Shown: positions 2,182 through 7,341 of the stretch, piece after piece
Layout of the letters: each line of letters starts with the position of its first letter
Numbering within the stretch: the stretch's first letter is position 1
Sequence record: NC_004928.1
Length of the DNA: 64,000 nucleotides
Origin: Escherichia phage RB69
Direction: 5' to 3' (one strand)
Program-made: the position numbers and the translations under genes
The notes under the pieces: generated by a model
Told to the model about the DNA's origin: nothing
Database searches by the model: none
The model's input: only the letters and a program-made list of their open reading frames with translations

Positions 2182-2422
2182 CTCGGTCCCATGATTTGGC
2201 CATTAATTCGGACATAAATTCTTCAATGCGCGTTTCTTTAGATGGACTTTCACTATTAGAGACCGCAAGTTTGTAATCTGCAATAGGACGGAACAAATCA
2301 AGGTCCATATCAAGGTCGTCTTTGATTTGTTCTTCAGGTACATCTGTATCATACGTATACAGATAACTATCAAGTGATTCTGATTTAACGTAAATTGCTA
2401 TACTCATCTCAAATTCCTGCAT
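2171..2422 (-). CDS. hypothetical acidic protein
   Basis: 83-aa ORF; its start codon lies inside the ECR codons of the upstream gene. Confidence 0.5.
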   Translation of the reverse strand: MQEFEMSIAIYVKSESLDSYLYTYDTDVPEEQIKDDLDMDLDLFRPIADYKLAVSNSESPSKETRIEEFMSELMAKSWDRDDE

Positions 2423-2901
2423 TCGGTAATAAAACGTTCAACTTCATTATTCTTGGCCTTTATCTTGTCTTTACGTTCCTGTAAACTACTTTTAACAAGA
2501 TTAATAATGATGCCTACAGTACCTCCACCAATAATACCACCAATAATACTTACAATAGTAGATGCTAATAAGATAGCGATAATATCTGGTACAGCAAAGG
2601 CACTTACTTTAGTACTAAAAAACCATACCGACGGTACAAATATAATCCATCCTGTTATCCATTGGCACTTATTGAAAAACTTTTCAAGCTCAGCTTGGGT
2701 TGTTCGTATTACTTCATCGATAGGTTGATATCCATTAATGTATCTGTTCACGATAATACCTGCTGGTTTGTCGATTTTAAATGCTTGACAATGGTGTTTC
2801 ACTAAGTAGGATGGACATCCTGTCCAATCTACTGAATAGTATGAAATACCTTCGTCGCCACCGTCCATGTTTGACCAGTGAATTTTCTGTATCATTACCA
2901 A
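2404..2901 (-). CDS. hypothetical membrane protein, C-terminal FIxECR motif
   Basis: 165 aa; hydrophobic segments WIIFVPSVWFF / IIAILLASTIVSIIGGIIGGG; ends ERFITECRNLR. Confidence 0.55.
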   Translation of the reverse strand: MVMIQKIHWSNMDGGDEGISYYSVDWTGCPSYLVKHHCQAFKIDKPAGIIVNRYINGYQPIDEVIRTTQAELEKFFNKCQWITGWIIFVPSVWFFSTKVSAFAVPDIIAILLASTIVSIIGGIIGGGTVGIIINLVKSSLQERKDKIKAKNNEVERFITECRNLR

Positions 2902-3582: not shown

Positions 3583-3888
3583 TTATTTTCCTCGACATTC
3601 TTTAATGAAATTTTCTAGATTGGTAGATTCAATAGCTTTTTTACGAGCTTCTGCGTGTTCTTCTTCAGACAATTTACGTTTATAATTGACCCAGACATTA
3701 TGGTCGAAACTAGTCGTGGCATATAATAACAATGCTCCAACGAATAGCAAAAACGGCGATAAGAATACAAAACCAGGAACACCATCCATATCGTAAGCCT
3801 TTTGTAATACTGCAACAGAAAGGGCTGCGTAAAAAAGTGATGCAAATATTGTTAAAAGACCAATTCGGTTGGTTTCGCCTAATTTCAT
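3583..3888 (-). CDS. hypothetical membrane protein, C-terminal FIxECR motif
   Basis: 101 aa, two predicted TM helices, ends ENFIKECRGK; early promoter just upstream. Confidence 0.6.
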   Translation of the reverse strand: MKLGETNRIGLLTIFASLFYAALSVAVLQKAYDMDGVPGFVFLSPFLLFVGALLLYATTSFDHNVWVNYKRKLSEEEHAEARKKAIESTNLENFIKECRGK

Positions 3889-3915: not shown

Positions 3916-3945
3916 ACTATAATATAGTCCTATAATTGTGTAAAC
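3916..3945 (-). promoter_or_regulatory. sigma70-type early promoter inside inverted repeat (GTTTAC ... TATAGT)
   Basis: Minus strand GTTTACACAATTATAGGACTATATTATAGT; flanked by ataggact / agtcctat inverted repeat. Confidence 0.6.
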
Positions 3946-3957
3946 AGTTTTGCGAAA

Positions 3958-4914
3958 TTATTTGAAAGGTTTTACCATATGGAAATTTTGTTTGAAACGT
4001 TTGACGTAATCGTCATGTCCTAAACTTTGGTACATACTTACTACTTTGCTGTAGTTTTCCCAGGCATACTCACGGAACCAACCAGAGGTGATGCTTGTAC
4101 AGACTTTTTCCAATGCCATCATAAAACTGGCTTCAGGGTTAATTTTAAAGTCATTAGGAATTTGAGAACGTTCTAATGCTAGTACACATGATTCTTCGTA
4201 TACACCAGCCAATTTGACCATTTCTGGTAATGATTCGAACTTCTCGCGTGAGGTCATGACTTCAGAGCCGTCTTTCATATAAAATGTATACGCTGGACGG
4301 TCTGTTAGTGCAATGGCTTCATGAATAGTATCATGGTCATATGTATAGATGTCATCTTTAAAGAACGCACTTTTAGAAGTGTCAAGAACCGGGTGAGCAT
4401 AGTTCAAGGTTTCTTTCTGGCGTTTCAGCATAATTTCAGTAAGTTCATCGTTCAGTGTAACACCTTTACCACGAAGATACTGAATATGGTTCATAGTCTT
4501 TAAAAAGAATGGATTATTTTTCTTGAAACGATGAGACATCTTAATTGCAAGACATATCTCAGGAGTTGCCCAGTAAAACCCGTTCAAACGGTCTTTAGTC
4601 AAATTTTTCTTGGCGTATTTTAAAAGGTCATAAGAAGACGTGAAATCTTCAGGAGTGAGTTCACCGATTAATTCACGGACATTAGTGATTGCCGGAACAA
4701 TATATGCTTCAAAATGAGTTTCGCGTCCATTATGGAAGCATTTGAAAACTTGGACATCAGGGTTATCTTGGTGAACATATACACCCATCATTTGATTTTT
4801 GAATGCATTCCAAGAACATTGGTCCGCAATAAAGTCCCAATCGCTATTTTTGATAGCGCTAGAATCAATAAGACCGTGATAGTGAAGTGCACGAGAACCA
4901 ATAACCAACATCAT
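3958..4914 (-). CDS. hypothetical protein, possible nucleotidyltransferase fold
   Basis: 318 aa; N-terminal LVIGSRALHYHGLIDSSAIKNSDWDFIA resembles the hG[GS]...[DE]h[DE]h signature of pol-beta-type NTases (spacing longer than canonical). Confidence 0.6.
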   Translation of the reverse strand: MMLVIGSRALHYHGLIDSSAIKNSDWDFIADQCSWNAFKNQMMGVYVHQDNPDVQVFKCFHNGRETHFEAYIVPAITNVRELIGELTPEDFTSSYDLLKYAKKNLTKDRLNGFYWATPEICLAIKMSHRFKKNNPFFLKTMNHIQYLRGKGVTLNDELTEIMLKRQKETLNYAHPVLDTSKSAFFKDDIYTYDHDTIHEAIALTDRPAYTFYMKDGSEVMTSREKFESLPEMVKLAGVYEESCVLALERSQIPNDFKINPEASFMMALEKVCTSITSGWFREYAWENYSKVVSMYQSLGHDDYVKRFKQNFHMVKPFK

Positions 4915-4942
4915 AATATTTTCCTCTGATTAATTCATTAAC

Positions 4943-5194
4943 TTAAATTTCACGACATGCGATATCATATTCATCCCAGAGGTCATCGTGTGAAGCCTCT
5001 ACCAATGGAACGATTGTGCCGTTTATGTCTTCATTATAAGGGCAAATTGTACAGTGCGCATCTTCGAATCGGATGCCTTTGTGTTCAGATTTTTTATAAC
5101 GCATATCGAATATCTTTGCAAACTTTTCACGAGTAATGGTTTTAGCAACCACTTTGGTTCCGATACTTTCGTAATAAATCATTGTGGACTCCAT
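4943..5194 (-). CDS. hypothetical protein
   Basis: 83-aa ORF downstream of early promoter at 5211-5240. Confidence 0.5.
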   Translation of the reverse strand: MESTMIYYESIGTKVVAKTITREKFAKIFDMRYKKSEHKGIRFEDAHCTICPYNEDINGTIVPLVEASHDDLWDEYDIACREI

Positions 5195-5210: not shown

Positions 5211-5240
5211 ACTATAACATAGCCCTATCTTGTTGTAAAC
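5211..5240 (-). promoter_or_regulatory. sigma70-type early promoter inside inverted repeat
   Basis: Minus strand GTTTAC(18)TATAGT within the tgataggactactataacatagccctatc element. Confidence 0.6.
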
Positions 5241-5244
5241 TGTT

Positions 5245-5442
5245 TTAGCAAGAATAACTAGATGATACCCAGCCTTGAACAGTAATACTATTATTTGATA
5301 ACGAGATTGCGTCCTGGAGATTCAGACCTGCGTTATCTTCAATCCATAATGTAACTTCTTCGCGTTCTTCTGTTGCAATTTGGAACAGGTTTTCCAGAGC
5401 AGCTACTGCCGTACGTACAGCACAATCTAATTCGCGAGACAT
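5245..5442 (-). CDS. small hypothetical protein, GWVxSSxxC C-terminal family
   Basis: 65 aa ending QGWVSSSYSC. Confidence 0.5.
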   Translation of the reverse strand: MSRELDCAVRTAVAALENLFQIATEEREEVTLWIEDNAGLNLQDAISLSNNSITVQGWVSSSYSC

Positions 5443-5451
5443 ATTGTTTCC

Positions 5452-5724
5452 TTAGCAAGTGTGAGAAGATGCGACCCAACCACCAGTTTCGAGGCTCAGG
5501 TTGTAGTCGTATTGGTAAACGTCAGCCCATTCAGCATAGCCGTTTTTTGTACAACGTTCAAGATCGGCTTTAAGATGTCCGGGTGAATGATAGGTTCCAC
5601 CCATACCATAAGCTGGGTACAAGTCGAATGTTGTGTTTTGTTTATCAGCAATTTCTTTGGCAGCCTCAATAGCTGCATAGATTTTTGCTACAGCTTCAGT
5701 CAGTTCGGTTTGTTCTTTAGACAT
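5452..5724 (-). CDS. small hypothetical protein, GWVxSSxxC C-terminal family
   Basis: 90 aa ending GGWVASSHTC; stop followed by GGAAACAAT and next ATG. Confidence 0.55.
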   Translation of the reverse strand: MSKEQTELTEAVAKIYAAIEAAKEIADKQNTTFDLYPAYGMGGTYHSPGHLKADLERCTKNGYAEWADVYQYDYNLSLETGGWVASSHTC

Positions 5725-5733
5725 AATGATTCC

Positions 5734-5835
5734 TTAGCACAACGCAGGAGACGAAACCCAAGCACCTTCAGTAATAACGTAACCATTACCTTCACGCTTA
5801 ACATCGCCACCATTATTTTCAATTTCATTTTTCAT
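5734..5835 (-). CDS. very small hypothetical protein (33 aa), GWVxSSxxC family
   Basis: Not in ORF track (below 60 aa); hand translation MKNEIENNGGDVKREGNGYVITEGAWVSSPALC; shares C-terminal motif and stop-RBS junction with neighbours. Confidence 0.35.
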   Translation of the reverse strand: MKNEIENNGGDVKREGNGYVITEGAWVSSPALC

Positions 5836-6040
5836 ACCACTGGGATACGATTTCACCCTTAGGATAATAAGTACGACCGCTACCATAATCACCTACAGAA
5901 AATGATACGGCATATTGGTCTGCGATCTTTGTTGCTTCTTCTTCGATACGTTCAGCTTGATTCAGAAGTTTATAAATTGCATCTGAAGCGGATTTGGCAT
6001 CATTAAATTCTGGTACTTTAATTTCGATAATCTTACTCAT
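5825..6040 (-). CDS. hypothetical protein
   Basis: 71-aa ORF; AAGGA RBS upstream of ATG. Confidence 0.5.
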   Translation of the reverse strand: MSKIIEIKVPEFNDAKSASDAIYKLLNQAERIEEEATKIADQYAVSFSVGDYGSGRTYYPKGEIVSQWYEK

Positions 6041-6396
6041 TTTCTACATTCCTTAATAAAGTTTTCTATTGTTTCATTTTCACGTTTAGCTAGGAGTTCA
6101 TTATAACTAATCATTTGAGAAGCGTAAACCTTTTTATTTTTCTTGTTATGGTTTATAAAATCGTAGTAAAAATAGACTACAGTACAAAATGATGCGATGG
6201 ATGCAAAGGCTTGGGTATACCGTAAGTCCTGCCATTGGTCTGTGAATCCGCCAGTGTTTCCTATAAATCCTAACACAACGCCGTCAATAAGAAATCCAAC
6301 TAATCCAAAGGCAAATCCCATGCCAATACTCATAATAAAAATTAGAATGTTCTCACCAAGAGAAGGCCATACGGTTAAGAGTTGAGGCTTTTGCAT
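6037..6396 (-). CDS. hypothetical membrane protein, C-terminal FIxECR motif
   Basis: 119 aa; hydrophobic N-terminal half; ends ENFIKECRK. Confidence 0.55.
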   Translation of the reverse strand: MQKPQLLTVWPSLGENILIFIMSIGMGFAFGLVGFLIDGVVLGFIGNTGGFTDQWQDLRYTQAFASIASFCTVVYFYYDFINHNKKNKKVYASQMISYNELLAKRENETIENFIKECRK

Positions 6397-6770
6397 CTTA
6401 TTTCCTTAACGAATTCCATAGCTTCTTCATATTCATACTTTTTAACAGCTTCATCATACTGAGCTTGGGCTTTTGCGCACTGAACTTTCCACTCACGAAC
6501 TCGAGCTCTGTGATGACGGCCTTGGTGCCAATATCCTACCCAATTAATAGGCATTAATAAAAACGGTACAATAAGTGGTGCGACGAACATTAATGAAAAT
6601 GCTGCATCAGACGATATAACTTCACTAGAATCTAAAACAGCTCCTATAATCATAAAGATTAAAAATGCTAAAGCTAAAATAGGGCCAAATAGTACTTCAT
6701 TAGGAATTAATTTACGTTTGTATTCGTATGCCCAGGGCTTACTTGGCATGTATAGGGTTGGCTTTGACAT
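6375..6770 (-). CDS. hypothetical membrane protein (EFVKEIRC C-terminal motif)
   Basis: Track ORF 6375..6800; start moved to internal ATG at 6770 (start uncertain); two hydrophobic segments. Confidence 0.5.
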   Translation of the reverse strand: MSKPTLYMPSKPWAYEYKRKLIPNEVLFGPILALAFLIFMIIGAVLDSSEVISSDAAFSLMFVAPLIVPFLLMPINWVGYWHQGRHHRARVREWKVQCAKAQAQYDEAVKKYEYEEAMEFVKEIRCKSLNS

Positions 6771-7341
6771 ATTCTCTACATTCCATAATAAATTGCTCAA
6801 GGATTAAATTGTTAGTGAAATTAGGACTAACAACCATAGTTTCATAAAGCGCATCAATAGCACTTAAAGCATCAACTCTTTTAAGCAAAGGCTTGCCTTC
6901 ATACATAGTTTCAGAATCGATGATTAACGTAAAGTAATATTTTTTATTATCGACTAGAACTTCTGTATCGATATAAAACATATTAGACCTCAGAAGCTTA
7001 TCTCTAAAACCATAATAATCTTCAGAGCGTTCGCTGATATATTCCCATTCAGTGTTTAAACAACAAACAGACCATGTAGGAGCAACGAAATCAGTGAATC
7101 TAATATCATGGTCTGCAACTAGTTTAGCAATAGCTCCGATATCATGAATCATAATACCTGGGGCTAATAAAGATTTTCTGCTATGGCTAGCCGTTTTCTC
7201 GGTGGTCTCATAAGAAGACGACCAGTACCATTTACGTCCGGTTGCAACATATCGTAATGAATCAACTAAAGACGTAGGTGGATTTACCTTATCTCGGAAC
7301 TCTTCAAACATTGAGTCAATATCATTATTTTGGTTTCGCAT
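6739..7341 (-). CDS. hypothetical protein with FIMECR motif near C-terminus
   Basis: Track ORF 6739..7362; ATG at 7341 follows a terminator hairpin and AAGGAG RBS. Confidence 0.55.
   Translation of the reverse strand: MRNQNNDIDSMFEEFRDKVNPPTSLVDSLRYVATGRKWYWSSSYETTEKTASHSRKSLLAPGIMIHDIGAIAKLVADHDIRFTDFVAPTWSVCCLNTEWEYISERSEDYYGFRDKLLRSNMFYIDTEVLVDNKKYYFTLIIDSETMYEGKPLLKRVDALSAIDALYETMVVSPNFTNNLILEQFIMECREYVKANPIHAK

What the first reader, a model, noticed from the sequence alone, without database searches (positions are those of the whole stretch)
3958..4914. 318-aa early protein with a nucleotidyltransferase-like N-terminal motif
The N-terminus LVIGSRALHYHGLIDSSAIKNSDWDFIA resembles the G-S ... 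D-x-D signature of pol-beta-superfamily nucleotidyltransferases, though spacing is longer than canonical. Phage NTase-fold proteins include nucleotide-signal modifiers and toxin-antitoxin components; I cannot match it to a named T4 gene. It has its own early promoter and sits in the variable region.
Basis: inference. Interest (0 to 1): 0.55.

Follow-up and report, generated by a model that had tools for sequence, protein, structure and literature searches.

The report
Phage nucleotidyltransferase with Cys-tailed partner proteins
The ORF is a real, probably active, uncharacterised phage nucleotidyltransferase that is almost always encoded just downstream of one to six small acidic proteins ending in Ser-Ser-Ser-x-x-Cys, which suggests an undescribed enzyme-plus-substrate (or enzyme-plus-regulator) module.

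Summary
Window 3958-4914 (minus strand) encodes a 318-aa protein of a Mosigvirus-type T-even phage. It matches only two Pfam domains of unknown function, DUF7277 and DUF7275 (PHROG 2141).

The larger, better conserved helical C-lobe has no counterpart among solved structures.

112 of 124 loci (32 of 39 clades) carry 1-6 tandem genes for small acidic proteins directly upstream on the same strand. In the window these lie at 5245-6040. About 96% end exactly in W-x-S-S-S-x-x-Cys-COOH. Starting from the small proteins instead, 31 of 33 loci have the enzyme gene just downstream. No third gene is conserved and I found no literature.

My best guess is that the enzyme nucleotidylylates a Ser in these tails. 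This is inferred, not shown. The gene shares an early-type promoter with an 83-aa ORF; it has none of its own.

The parts
3958..4914 (-). Gene for the 318-aa two-lobed nucleotidyltransferase (Pfam DUF7277 + DUF7275; PHROG 2141)
4585..4914 (-). N-lobe, about aa 1-110: pol-beta-type catalytic core with G6-S7, D25-x-D27 and E69
   Evidence: Triad kept in at least 97% of 262 homologs, counting E or D at 69. Secondary-structure order. DUF7277 covers aa 2-101. Median identity to homologs is only 26%.
3961..4584 (-). C-lobe, about aa 111-318: all-helical DUF7275. Near-invariant K125, H128, R129, K139, T140, R165, H194-D195-x-x-H198, E240-E241, E248-R249, K270 and the stretch C272-T-S-I-T-S-G-W-F-R281
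4922..4926 (-). Shine-Dalgarno GAGGA, 7 nt before the ATG, inside the 28-nt gap to the upstream ORF
   Evidence: Read directly from the sequence.
4943..5194 (-). 83-aa ORF (PHROG 3723, unknown function) between the small-protein genes and the enzyme gene, apparently co-transcribed with it. Not conserved outside close relatives.
   Evidence: HX01 annotates it as 'major capsid protein', probably wrongly.
5211..5240 (-). T4-early-type promoter-like site: GTTTACA, 17 nt, TATAGT (preceded by TG)
   Evidence: This is a consensus match only; function was not tested.
5245..5442 (-). Small acidic partner protein, 65 aa, ending ...QGWVSSSYSC (PHROG 4882)
5452..5724 (-). Small acidic partner protein, 90 aa, with a YGMGG motif and the tail ...GGWVASSHTC (PHROG 899)
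5734..6040 (-). Third partner gene (101 aa in phage HX01). In this window a 1-nt insertion breaks it: the N-terminal part is 5825-6040, and the tail ...GAWVSSPALC sits in another frame at 5734-5886.
6100..6128 (-). Promoter-like site (TTTACG, 17 nt, TATAAT) upstream of the small-protein genes
   Evidence: Consensus match only.

Best explanation
The gene encodes an active, Mg2+-dependent two-lobed pol-beta-superfamily nucleotidyltransferase. The N-lobe supplies the metal-binding triad (D25, D27, E69) and the G6-S7 phosphate-binding turn. The large, highly conserved helical C-lobe supplies basic and histidine residues (K125, H128, R129, K139, R165 and others) that close the cleft over the NTP and the acceptor. 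The enzyme works as one module with the small acidic proteins encoded just upstream. I propose that those proteins are its acceptor substrates: their flexible C-terminal tail (G-x-W-x-S-S-S-x-x-Cys-COOH) enters the cleft and a tail serine hydroxyl receives an NMP or a nucleotide-linked group. Known pol-beta enzymes modify small proteins in this way: CitX/MdcG on a Ser of acyl carrier proteins, GlnE and GlnD on Tyr, and MNT on HEPN. On this view the differently built bodies of the paralogs are the effectors, expressed early in infection for host takeover or counter-defence. SHOWN: the fold, the conserved catalytic residues, the two-way gene linkage, and the near-invariant terminal Cys and Ser residues. 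INFERRED: catalytic activity, the identity of the acceptor, the chemistry, and the biological role.

For: Linkage: 71 of 80 viral loci have at least one ORF ending W-x-S-S-x-C within 2 kb upstream on the same strand. That is 159 such ORFs in 159 kb, against 19 in 2975 strand-kb elsewhere, roughly a 150-fold enrichment. An HMM of the small proteins finds 191 hits, all on the enzyme's strand, and 186 of them end within 3 kb upstream. Overall 112 of 124 loci and 32 of 39 clades at 60% identity are positive. In reverse, 31 of 33 loci found through the small protein have the enzyme gene downstream. No third gene family is conserved.

Tails: 202 of 211 unique tails end exactly in Cys. In the global database 117 of the best 120 homologs have W at -8, S at -5, S at -4 and C at -1. 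The paralogs share the tail but have distinct bodies that are conserved across genera, which fits a common handle on different effectors.

Residues lost from the enzyme only in the partner-less short forms (R129, T140, R148, R165, Y172, H174, P175, C272, S277, R281) are candidates for binding the tail.
Against: There is no biochemical evidence of any kind. The closest structural relatives, the MenT toxins, act on tRNA 3' ends, not on proteins. Some small proteins carry a second, internal copy of the W-x-S-S-S-C motif directly next to the Y-G-x-G motif. This hints that the tail may pack against the body instead of being a free substrate. Seven clades have the enzyme without a detectable partner within about 3.5 kb, and the short actinophage and KVP40 forms have none, so the conserved catalytic core must have a function that does not need the partner. 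Gene linkage alone cannot tell a substrate from a regulator or an adaptor.
Confidence: 0.42

Rival explanations
1. A MenT/AbiEii-like RNA 3'-end nucleotidyltransferase. The enzyme would add nucleotides to tRNA or another RNA, either to shut off or re-programme host translation or to repair RNA ends. The upstream small acidic proteins would be antitoxin-like regulators or pseudo-substrate inhibitors whose tail plugs the active site, as the small MenA1 protein encoded upstream neutralises MenT1.
Against: No sequence-level membership: there is no AbiEii/DUF1814 Pfam hit for any of 44 members even at E 10. There is no invariant Asp at the place of MenT motif IV; K139-T140 sit there instead. Up to six paralogous 'antitoxins' with distinct conserved bodies and a 96% invariant terminal Cys are hard to explain as inhibitors. 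The protein is not basic: median pI is 6.2. The gene is not linked to tRNA clusters in Aeromonas phage 31 (none annotated within 20 kb) or in the 4-kb flanks read for Abraxas, phAPEC8 and phiPsa267.
Confidence: 0.2
2. The small proteins are specificity adaptors or cofactors, neither substrates nor inhibitors. Each paralog would recruit the enzyme to a different host or phage target, and the conserved tail would be the docking peptide.
For: A shared tail with different conserved bodies. The number of paralogs varies from 1 to 6 per locus. Strict co-occurrence in both directions.
Against: A docking peptide does not explain why the last residue must be Cys, or why hydroxyl residues are invariant at -4 and -5. 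I know of no precedent among pol-beta nucleotidyltransferases.
Confidence: 0.12
3. An enzyme that acts on a small molecule or makes a nucleotide signal: an ANT/Lnu-like modifier of a metabolite, or a maker or modifier of a signalling nucleotide used against host defence. The upstream small proteins would be only neighbours.
Against: The reported family is RlaP (PF10127) with a different motif, and shows no profile similarity to this one (hhalign probability 0.1%). No PADLOC hit. A roughly 150-fold, two-way linkage across about 30 clades in otherwise non-syntenic phages is very unlikely for unrelated neighbours.
Confidence: 0.1
4. A catalytically dead fold used as a structural or binding protein.
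For: The loop between G-S and D-x-D is longer than canonical. No known C-lobe family to compare with.
Against: The G-S turn, both Asp and the third carboxylate are kept in 97-100% of 262 diverse sequences, although the N-lobe is otherwise only about 26% identical. That pattern marks a working active site.
Confidence: 0.03

Closest known systems
MenT1/MenT3/MenT4 and AbiEii (DUF1814 nucleotidyltransferase toxins)
   Different: No sequence or Pfam relationship. This protein has the full D-x-D...E triad, whereas the residues named as catalytic in MenT1 are T39, D41, K137 and D152. No conserved Asp lies at the motif IV position. The C-lobe is about 200 aa, much larger, and unmatched in the PDB. 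The partners are tandem acidic paralogs with a Cys-terminal tail, not AbiEi or MenA proteins. The family is phage-borne, not a bacterial toxin-antitoxin locus.
ANT(2'')-Ia (AadB) and LnuA antibiotic nucleotidyltransferases
   Different: They are 160-180 aa proteins that act on small antibiotics, with no sequence similarity and no partner proteins. This protein is 318 aa and its C-lobe is more conserved than its N-lobe.
Pol-beta-type enzymes that modify proteins: CitX/MdcG, GlnE, GlnD, MNT of HEPN-MNT (from my own knowledge of these families)
   Same: They are precedents for the proposed chemistry: transfer of a nucleotide or a nucleotide-linked group from a triphosphate donor to a Ser or Tyr hydroxyl of a small partner protein encoded nearby.
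   Different: None appears among the structural or sequence matches. Their acceptor proteins (ACP, PII, GS, HEPN) are unrelated to the Cys-tailed proteins. Membership was not tested beyond the absence of Pfam hits.
Phage RlaP-type nucleotidyltransferases reported to make cyclic dinucleotides (Ho et al. 2022 preprint)
   Same: Phage-encoded pol-beta enzymes in accessory or anti-defence regions, with an S-D-W-D-like catalytic motif.
   Different: A different family: Av05_0062 hits Pfam RlaP (PF10127), carries the motif GS-x-AY[GAN]T-x4-SDxD, and has hhalign probability 0.1% against this family.
Lanthipeptide and AviCys-type RiPP precursors (from my own knowledge: for example epidermin Ser19...Cys22-COOH)
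   Same: Several tandem precursor-like genes lie next to one enzyme gene. The C-terminal S-x-x-Cys-COOH spacing equals that of C-terminal lanthionine/AviCys rings. In some classes the serine is activated with an NTP (by phosphorylation) before elimination.
   Different: No LanB/LanM/LanKC, LanC or LanD homolog is present. The 'precursors' are 60-100 aa acidic proteins with conserved bodies, not a leader plus a variable core. Serine activation by a nucleotidyltransferase has no precedent I know of.

Membership tests
Pol-beta nucleotidyltransferase superfamily | Alpha/beta core in the order strand - G[GS] turn - helix - strand (acidic pair) - helix - strands | tested here: met
Pol-beta nucleotidyltransferase superfamily | hG[GS] motif | tested here: met
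   V-I-G6-S7; G in 99% and S in 97% of 262 sequences.
Pol-beta nucleotidyltransferase superfamily | [DE]h[DE]h motif plus a third carboxylate on a later strand | tested here: met
   D25-W-D27-F: D25 in 259/262, D27 in 261/262. E69 lies on strand 63-72, with E in 242 and D in 16 of 262.
Pol-beta nucleotidyltransferase superfamily | Canonical spacing of 9-13 residues between G[GS] and the acidic pair | tested here: not met
   17 residues here; most family members have 13-19. The loop is longer, but the fold and the motifs are intact.
Pol-beta nucleotidyltransferase superfamily | Mg2+-dependent nucleotidyl transfer | not testable with these tools
   Needs biochemistry.
Pfam DUF7277 + DUF7275 / PHROG 2141 | Profile match above the curated cut-off | tested here: met
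   DUF7277 96.7 bits and DUF7275 265.1 bits (cut-off 27 for both); PHROG 2141 E 6e-150.
DUF1814 / AbiEii / MenT toxins | Sequence membership (Pfam AbiEii profile; motifs I-IV) | tested here: not met
   No hit for any of 44 members at E up to 10. No invariant Asp at the motif IV position after K125.
DUF1814 / AbiEii / MenT toxins | Two-lobed fold similar to solved MenT structures | tested here: met
DUF1814 / AbiEii / MenT toxins | Cognate AbiEi/MenA-type antitoxin gene next to it; toxicity; tRNA 3'-end extension | tested here: inconclusive
   A small upstream gene exists, but it belongs to an unrelated Cys-tailed family. Toxicity and tRNA modification cannot be tested here.
Phage RlaP-type cyclic-dinucleotide-making nucleotidyltransferases (Ho et al. 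2022) | Motif GS-x-AY[GAN]T-x4-SDxD, NP-x-h2[DE], and the RlaP profile | tested here: not met
   No RlaP hit. hhalign of A1 against Av05_0062 gives probability 0.1%. The motif is absent.
HD-domain / class I phosphodiesterase (considered for the C-lobe) | H...HD...D metal site in an HD helical fold | tested here: not met
HEPN / KEN ribonuclease (considered after a weak RNase L hit) | R-x4-6-H catalytic motif in a HEPN fold | tested here: not met
Lanthipeptide / AviCys RiPP system | Precursor with a C-terminal S/T-x-x-Cys, plus a dehydratase, a cyclase and (for AviCys) a LanD flavoprotein | tested here: inconclusive
   The tail motif is present in 96%. No LanB/M/KC/C/D homolog or any other conserved third gene was found. 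Whether this enzyme replaces them cannot be tested here.

The most novel reading that the evidence does not exclude
The cassette is a new kind of ribosomal peptide or protein maturation system carried by phages. The nucleotidyltransferase would activate a tail serine by O-nucleotidylylation, taking the role that phosphorylation or glutamylation plays in known lanthipeptide pathways. The conserved Lys/His/Arg/Glu residues of the novel C-lobe would then catalyse beta-elimination to dehydroalanine. The invariant C-terminal Cys would add to it, giving a four-residue C-terminal thioether (lanthionine or AviCys-like) ring on a family of small acidic effector proteins.
Probability: 0.12. Interest if true: 0.9.

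Novelty: new variant of a known kind. Interest (0 to 1): 0.68.

Why it matters
The enzyme family is large: at least 1593 clusters at 50% identity and 732 sequenced phages, spanning T4-like, rV5-like, Otagovirus, jumbo and actinobacterial phages. It is almost entirely viral, and it exists in databases only as two domains of unknown function.

Showing that it is a conserved-active-site nucleotidyltransferase with a C-lobe unlike any solved structure gives a concrete handle on it. So does showing that it is locked to a family of small proteins whose last residue is nearly always Cys, behind a Ser-Ser-Ser stretch.

If the small proteins are substrates, this would be a new protein-modification system that phages use early in infection, possibly a new route to modified peptides. 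If they are regulators, it would be a phage-borne relative of MenT/AbiEii toxin-antitoxin biology.

Either way the question can now be settled by co-expression and intact-mass spectrometry.

Tried and rejected

2. C-lobe as a HEPN/KEN domain, after an RNase L profile hit at E 0.17. The catalytic motif is absent and there is no fold support.

3. Identity with the published phage cyclic-dinucleotide-making nucleotidyltransferases. I located the Av-05 enzyme (Av05_0062). It belongs to RlaP and is unrelated at profile level.

4. Linkage to tRNA gene clusters, an idea prompted by the MenT similarity. The window's tRNAs are about 6 kb away and Gordonia phage ClubL has tRNAs 1.2 kb downstream. But Aeromonas phage 31 has none annotated within 20 kb, and Abraxas, phAPEC8 and phiPsa267 show none in their flanks. 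I dropped the idea.

5. The directly adjacent 83-aa ORF as a conserved partner. It is not homologous to the upstream ORFs of other lineages and is not conserved across clades.

6. A 'Rosetta-stone' fusion of a small protein to the enzyme (P0256). This is an artefact of a gene call that reads through a TAG stop. In table 11 they are two adjacent genes.

7. A conserved third component such as a flavoprotein, peptidase or transporter. None is shared by more than 5 of 40 clades.

8. Charge as a clue to the acceptor. Median pI is 6.2, neither strongly basic nor acidic, so it is uninformative.

9. Literature searches for DUF7275/DUF7277, PHROG 2141/899 and the motifs YGMGG and WVSSS found nothing relevant.

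11. Absence from T4 itself was not tested directly. It is inferred from the hit counts and organism lists.

Full report
OBSERVATION. Window 3958-4914 holds a 318-aa ATG-to-stop ORF on the minus strand. The DNA is 96-98% identical to many Mosigvirus genomes of the RB69/HX01 type. In phage HX01 the gene is D299_gp055, 'hypothetical protein', in a run of small early genes downstream of e/nudE. The protein matches only Pfam DUF7277 (aa 2-101, E 1.4e-27) and DUF7275 (aa 120-305, E 4.8e-79), and PHROG 2141 (unknown function). There are no meaningful NCBIfam, PADLOC or PDB sequence hits. A note on numbering: alignment A1 and the AF2 model start at the second Met, so their positions are the ORF positions minus 1. 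ORF numbering is used throughout this report.

IS IT A NUCLEOTIDYLTRANSFERASE?

- Fold. With a 44-sequence alignment, AlphaFold2 gives a confident model (pLDDT 92.3, pTM 0.86). The N-terminal 110 residues run strand, G6-S7 turn, helix, strand starting at D25-x-D27, helix, then three strands with E69 on the last. This is the pol-beta order.
- Conservation. In 262 sequences, many of them representatives of 50%-identity clusters, G6 is kept in 99%, S7 in 97%, D25 in 259/262, D27 in 261/262, and position 69 is E in 242 and D in 16. The rest of the N-lobe is only about 26% identical, so this pattern points to a working active site.
- One departure. The G-S to D-x-D loop has 17 residues here and 13-19 in most of the family, longer than the textbook 9-13.

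THE C-LOBE. Residues 111-318 (DUF7275) are all-helical and much better conserved than the N-lobe (median identity 54% against 26%). Near-invariant residues are K125, H128, R129, K139, T140, R165, Y172, P175, H194-D195-x-x-H198, E240-E241, E248-R249, K270 and the stretch C272-T-S-I-T-S-G-W-F-R281.
- I tested the ideas that this lobe is an HD/phosphodiesterase or a HEPN/KEN domain and found no support.
- Short family members from actinophages and KVP40 (248-263 aa) keep G-S...D-x-D joined directly to DUF7275. The two lobes therefore always travel together and most likely form one catalytic cleft, as in MenT, ANT(2'') and Lnu.

DISTRIBUTION. The family has 2211 homologs and 1593 clusters at 50% identity, nearly all about 300 aa.
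- It occurs in 732 phage records: Mosigvirus, other non-T4-type Straboviridae, Phapecoctavirus, Otagovirus, Acinetobacter, Aeromonas, Vibrio, Stenotrophomonas and jumbo phages, and Gordonia and Streptomyces phages.
- A motif-seeded scan of one genome from each of 185,579 bacterial and archaeal species found five loci, all in metagenome bins. The family is in effect viral.
- T4-type phages do not appear among the hits. This is inferred from counts and was not tested directly.

While comparing the genes upstream of the enzyme in distant phages, I saw that they end alike. A scan then showed the following:
- The only real ORFs in the 64-kb window that end W-x-[SA]-S-x(1-4)-Cys-stop are the three directly upstream of the enzyme gene: 5245-5442, 5452-5724 and 5734-6040.
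- The same holds in Aeromonas phage 31 (41 kb searched), phAPEC8, phiPsa267 and two metagenome bins, where the small genes abut the enzyme's start codon.
- The proteins are true homologs: PHROG 899 at E 1e-12 to 1e-23, with PHROG 4882 for the 65-aa form, and no Pfam family.

Survey of 80 viral-contig loci found through the enzyme:
- 71 have at least one such ORF within 2 kb upstream on the same strand. That is 159 ORFs in 159 kb, against 19 in 2975 strand-kb elsewhere, about a 150-fold enrichment.
- An HMM of the small proteins finds 191 hits, all on the enzyme's strand, with 186 ending within 3 kb upstream and none on the opposite strand.
- Over all 124 loci held, 112 are positive. After collapsing the enzymes at 60% identity, 32 of 39 clades are positive, or 22 of 29 if only loci ascertained through the enzyme are counted.

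Reverse survey: of 33 loci found through the small protein's YGMGG motif, 31 have the enzyme gene within about 1.6 kb downstream. One exception is cut off by the contig end and the other is a weak hit. No third gene family is shared by more than 5 of 40 clades, so the module has two components. An apparent fusion of the two proteins (P0256) turned out to be a gene-calling artefact, a TAG stop that was read through.

THE SMALL PROTEINS.
- They are 52-172 aa (median 90) and acidic (median pI 4.4). They have an N-terminal helix (...A-E-x-I-A-D-E-H-G-x-x-F), often a Y-G-M-G-G motif, a variable acidic insert, and the tail G-x-W-x-S-S-S-x-x-C.
- Of 211 unique tails, 202 (96%) end exactly in Cys.
- In the large protein collection the profile finds 603 homologs. 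The best 120 are all 70-99 aa, carry no Pfam domain and are named 'hypothetical' or unnamed. Of these, 117 have W at -8, S at -5, S at -4 and C at -1.
- Loci hold 1-6 copies. The paralogs fall into subfamilies with different bodies that are conserved across genera.
- Their phage distribution matches that of the enzyme.
- I found no literature on either family or on the motifs.

MECHANISM. Shown: a pol-beta fold with an intact, conserved metal-binding triad; a conserved C-lobe with no structural precedent; and a strict two-way genetic coupling to Cys-tailed small proteins.

Inferred (my best guess, about 0.4): the small proteins are acceptor substrates, and a tail serine hydroxyl is nucleotidylylated in the cleft between the lobes. 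Precedents exist among pol-beta enzymes that modify small proteins: CitX/MdcG on Ser, GlnE and GlnD on Tyr, MNT on HEPN (from my own knowledge). The shared tail on differently built bodies fits a common modification handle. Residues lost only in the partner-less short enzymes (R129, T140, R148, R165, Y172, H174, P175, C272, S277, R281) are candidates for contacting the tail.

Rivals:
- A MenT-like RNA 3'-end transferase regulated by antitoxin-like small proteins (about 0.2). Fold neighbours and gene order favour it. The lack of DUF1814 motifs, the many paralogs and the invariant terminal Cys argue against it.
- Small proteins as targeting adaptors (about 0.12).
- A small-molecule or signal-nucleotide enzyme with unrelated neighbours (about 0.1). 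The published phage family that makes cyclic dinucleotides is RlaP and is unrelated.
- A catalytically dead fold (about 0.03).

Most novel reading (about 0.12): the S-x-x-Cys-COOH spacing equals that of C-terminal lanthionine/AviCys rings. The enzyme might therefore activate the serine for elimination, after which the terminal Cys would close a thioether ring.

TRANSCRIPTION. Only 28 nt, holding a GAGGA ribosome-binding site at 4926-4922, separate the start codon from the 83-aa ORF at 4943-5194. The nearest early-type promoter, GTTTACA-17-TATAGT at 5240-5211, lies upstream of that ORF. Another promoter-like site at 6128-6100 precedes the small-protein genes. The gene sits in an early-type unit but does not have a promoter of its own.

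VERDICT. The protein belongs to an uncharacterised, phage-restricted family that is a new variant within the pol-beta superfamily. Its obligate pairing with Cys-tailed small proteins is, as far as I could find, undescribed, and it makes the function directly testable.

Noticed in passing
window 5734-6040 (minus strand): The third small-protein gene (101 aa in HX01 and L015) carries a 1-nt insertion here (...CAGTGG[T]ATGAAA...). It truncates the protein at ...SQWYEK and puts the Cys tail out of frame. The tail also reads SSPALC instead of SSSALC. This is either a pseudogene or a sequencing error.
   Followed up: yes
window 2404-2901, 3583-3888, 6037-6396, 6375-6800 (all minus strand): Four ORFs that look like paralogous small membrane proteins flank the cassette. 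Each has a hydrophobic central stretch and a similar C-terminal end (...ERFITECRNLR...ENFIKECRGK...ENFIKECRK...EFVKEIRCKSLNS). The three scanned have no Pfam hits.
   Followed up: no
window 3916-3944 and 5211-5240 (minus strand): Two promoter-like sites share an extended module, GTTTACA-N17-TATAGT-AGTCCTAT. This suggests a repeated early-promoter cassette in front of successive small transcription units.
   Followed up: partly
window 10783-10941 (minus strand): tRNA-Arg(tct) and tRNA-Met(cat) genes lie about 6 kb from the enzyme gene. They are the only tRNAs in the window.
   Followed up: partly
L001 (phage HX01) 6986-7237 and 7495-7767: The RefSeq record names the 83-aa ORF 'major capsid protein' and the 90-aa Cys-tailed protein 'tail completion protein'. 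Some other records name the enzyme 'prohead assembly scaffold protein'. Given the sizes and families, these are almost certainly wrong names that have been copied between records.
   Followed up: partly
L010 (Streptomyces phage Wakanda gp195), L011 (KVP40.0037), L012 (Gordonia phage ClubL gp16): These are short forms of the enzyme (248-263 aa) with a much reduced N-lobe that still keeps G-S...D-x-D. None has a Cys-tailed partner nearby, and all lack a set of C-lobe residues that are invariant elsewhere (R129, R165, H174, C272, S277, R281).
   Followed up: partly
L014 19741-19959; L002 3377-3631; L020: Some small proteins carry two copies of the tail motif: an internal ...D-D-W-x-S-S-S-C directly followed by Y-G-E-G, and a terminal W-x-S-S-S-C. 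This hints that the tail and the Y-G-x-G motif lie close together in the folded protein.
   Followed up: no
L128 107-1240 (protein P0256): The database protein of 377 aa reads through an in-frame TAG, translated as Q, and so joins a small protein to the enzyme. With table 11 these are two genes, and the enzyme starts at a GTG behind an AAAGGA ribosome-binding site.
   Followed up: yes
L011 (KVP40) and L002 (phAPEC8): In both of these unrelated phages a Sir2-like gene lies a few kb downstream of the enzyme gene, and KVP40 also has a MazG-like gene two genes upstream. This may be coincidence within accessory regions.
   Followed up: no
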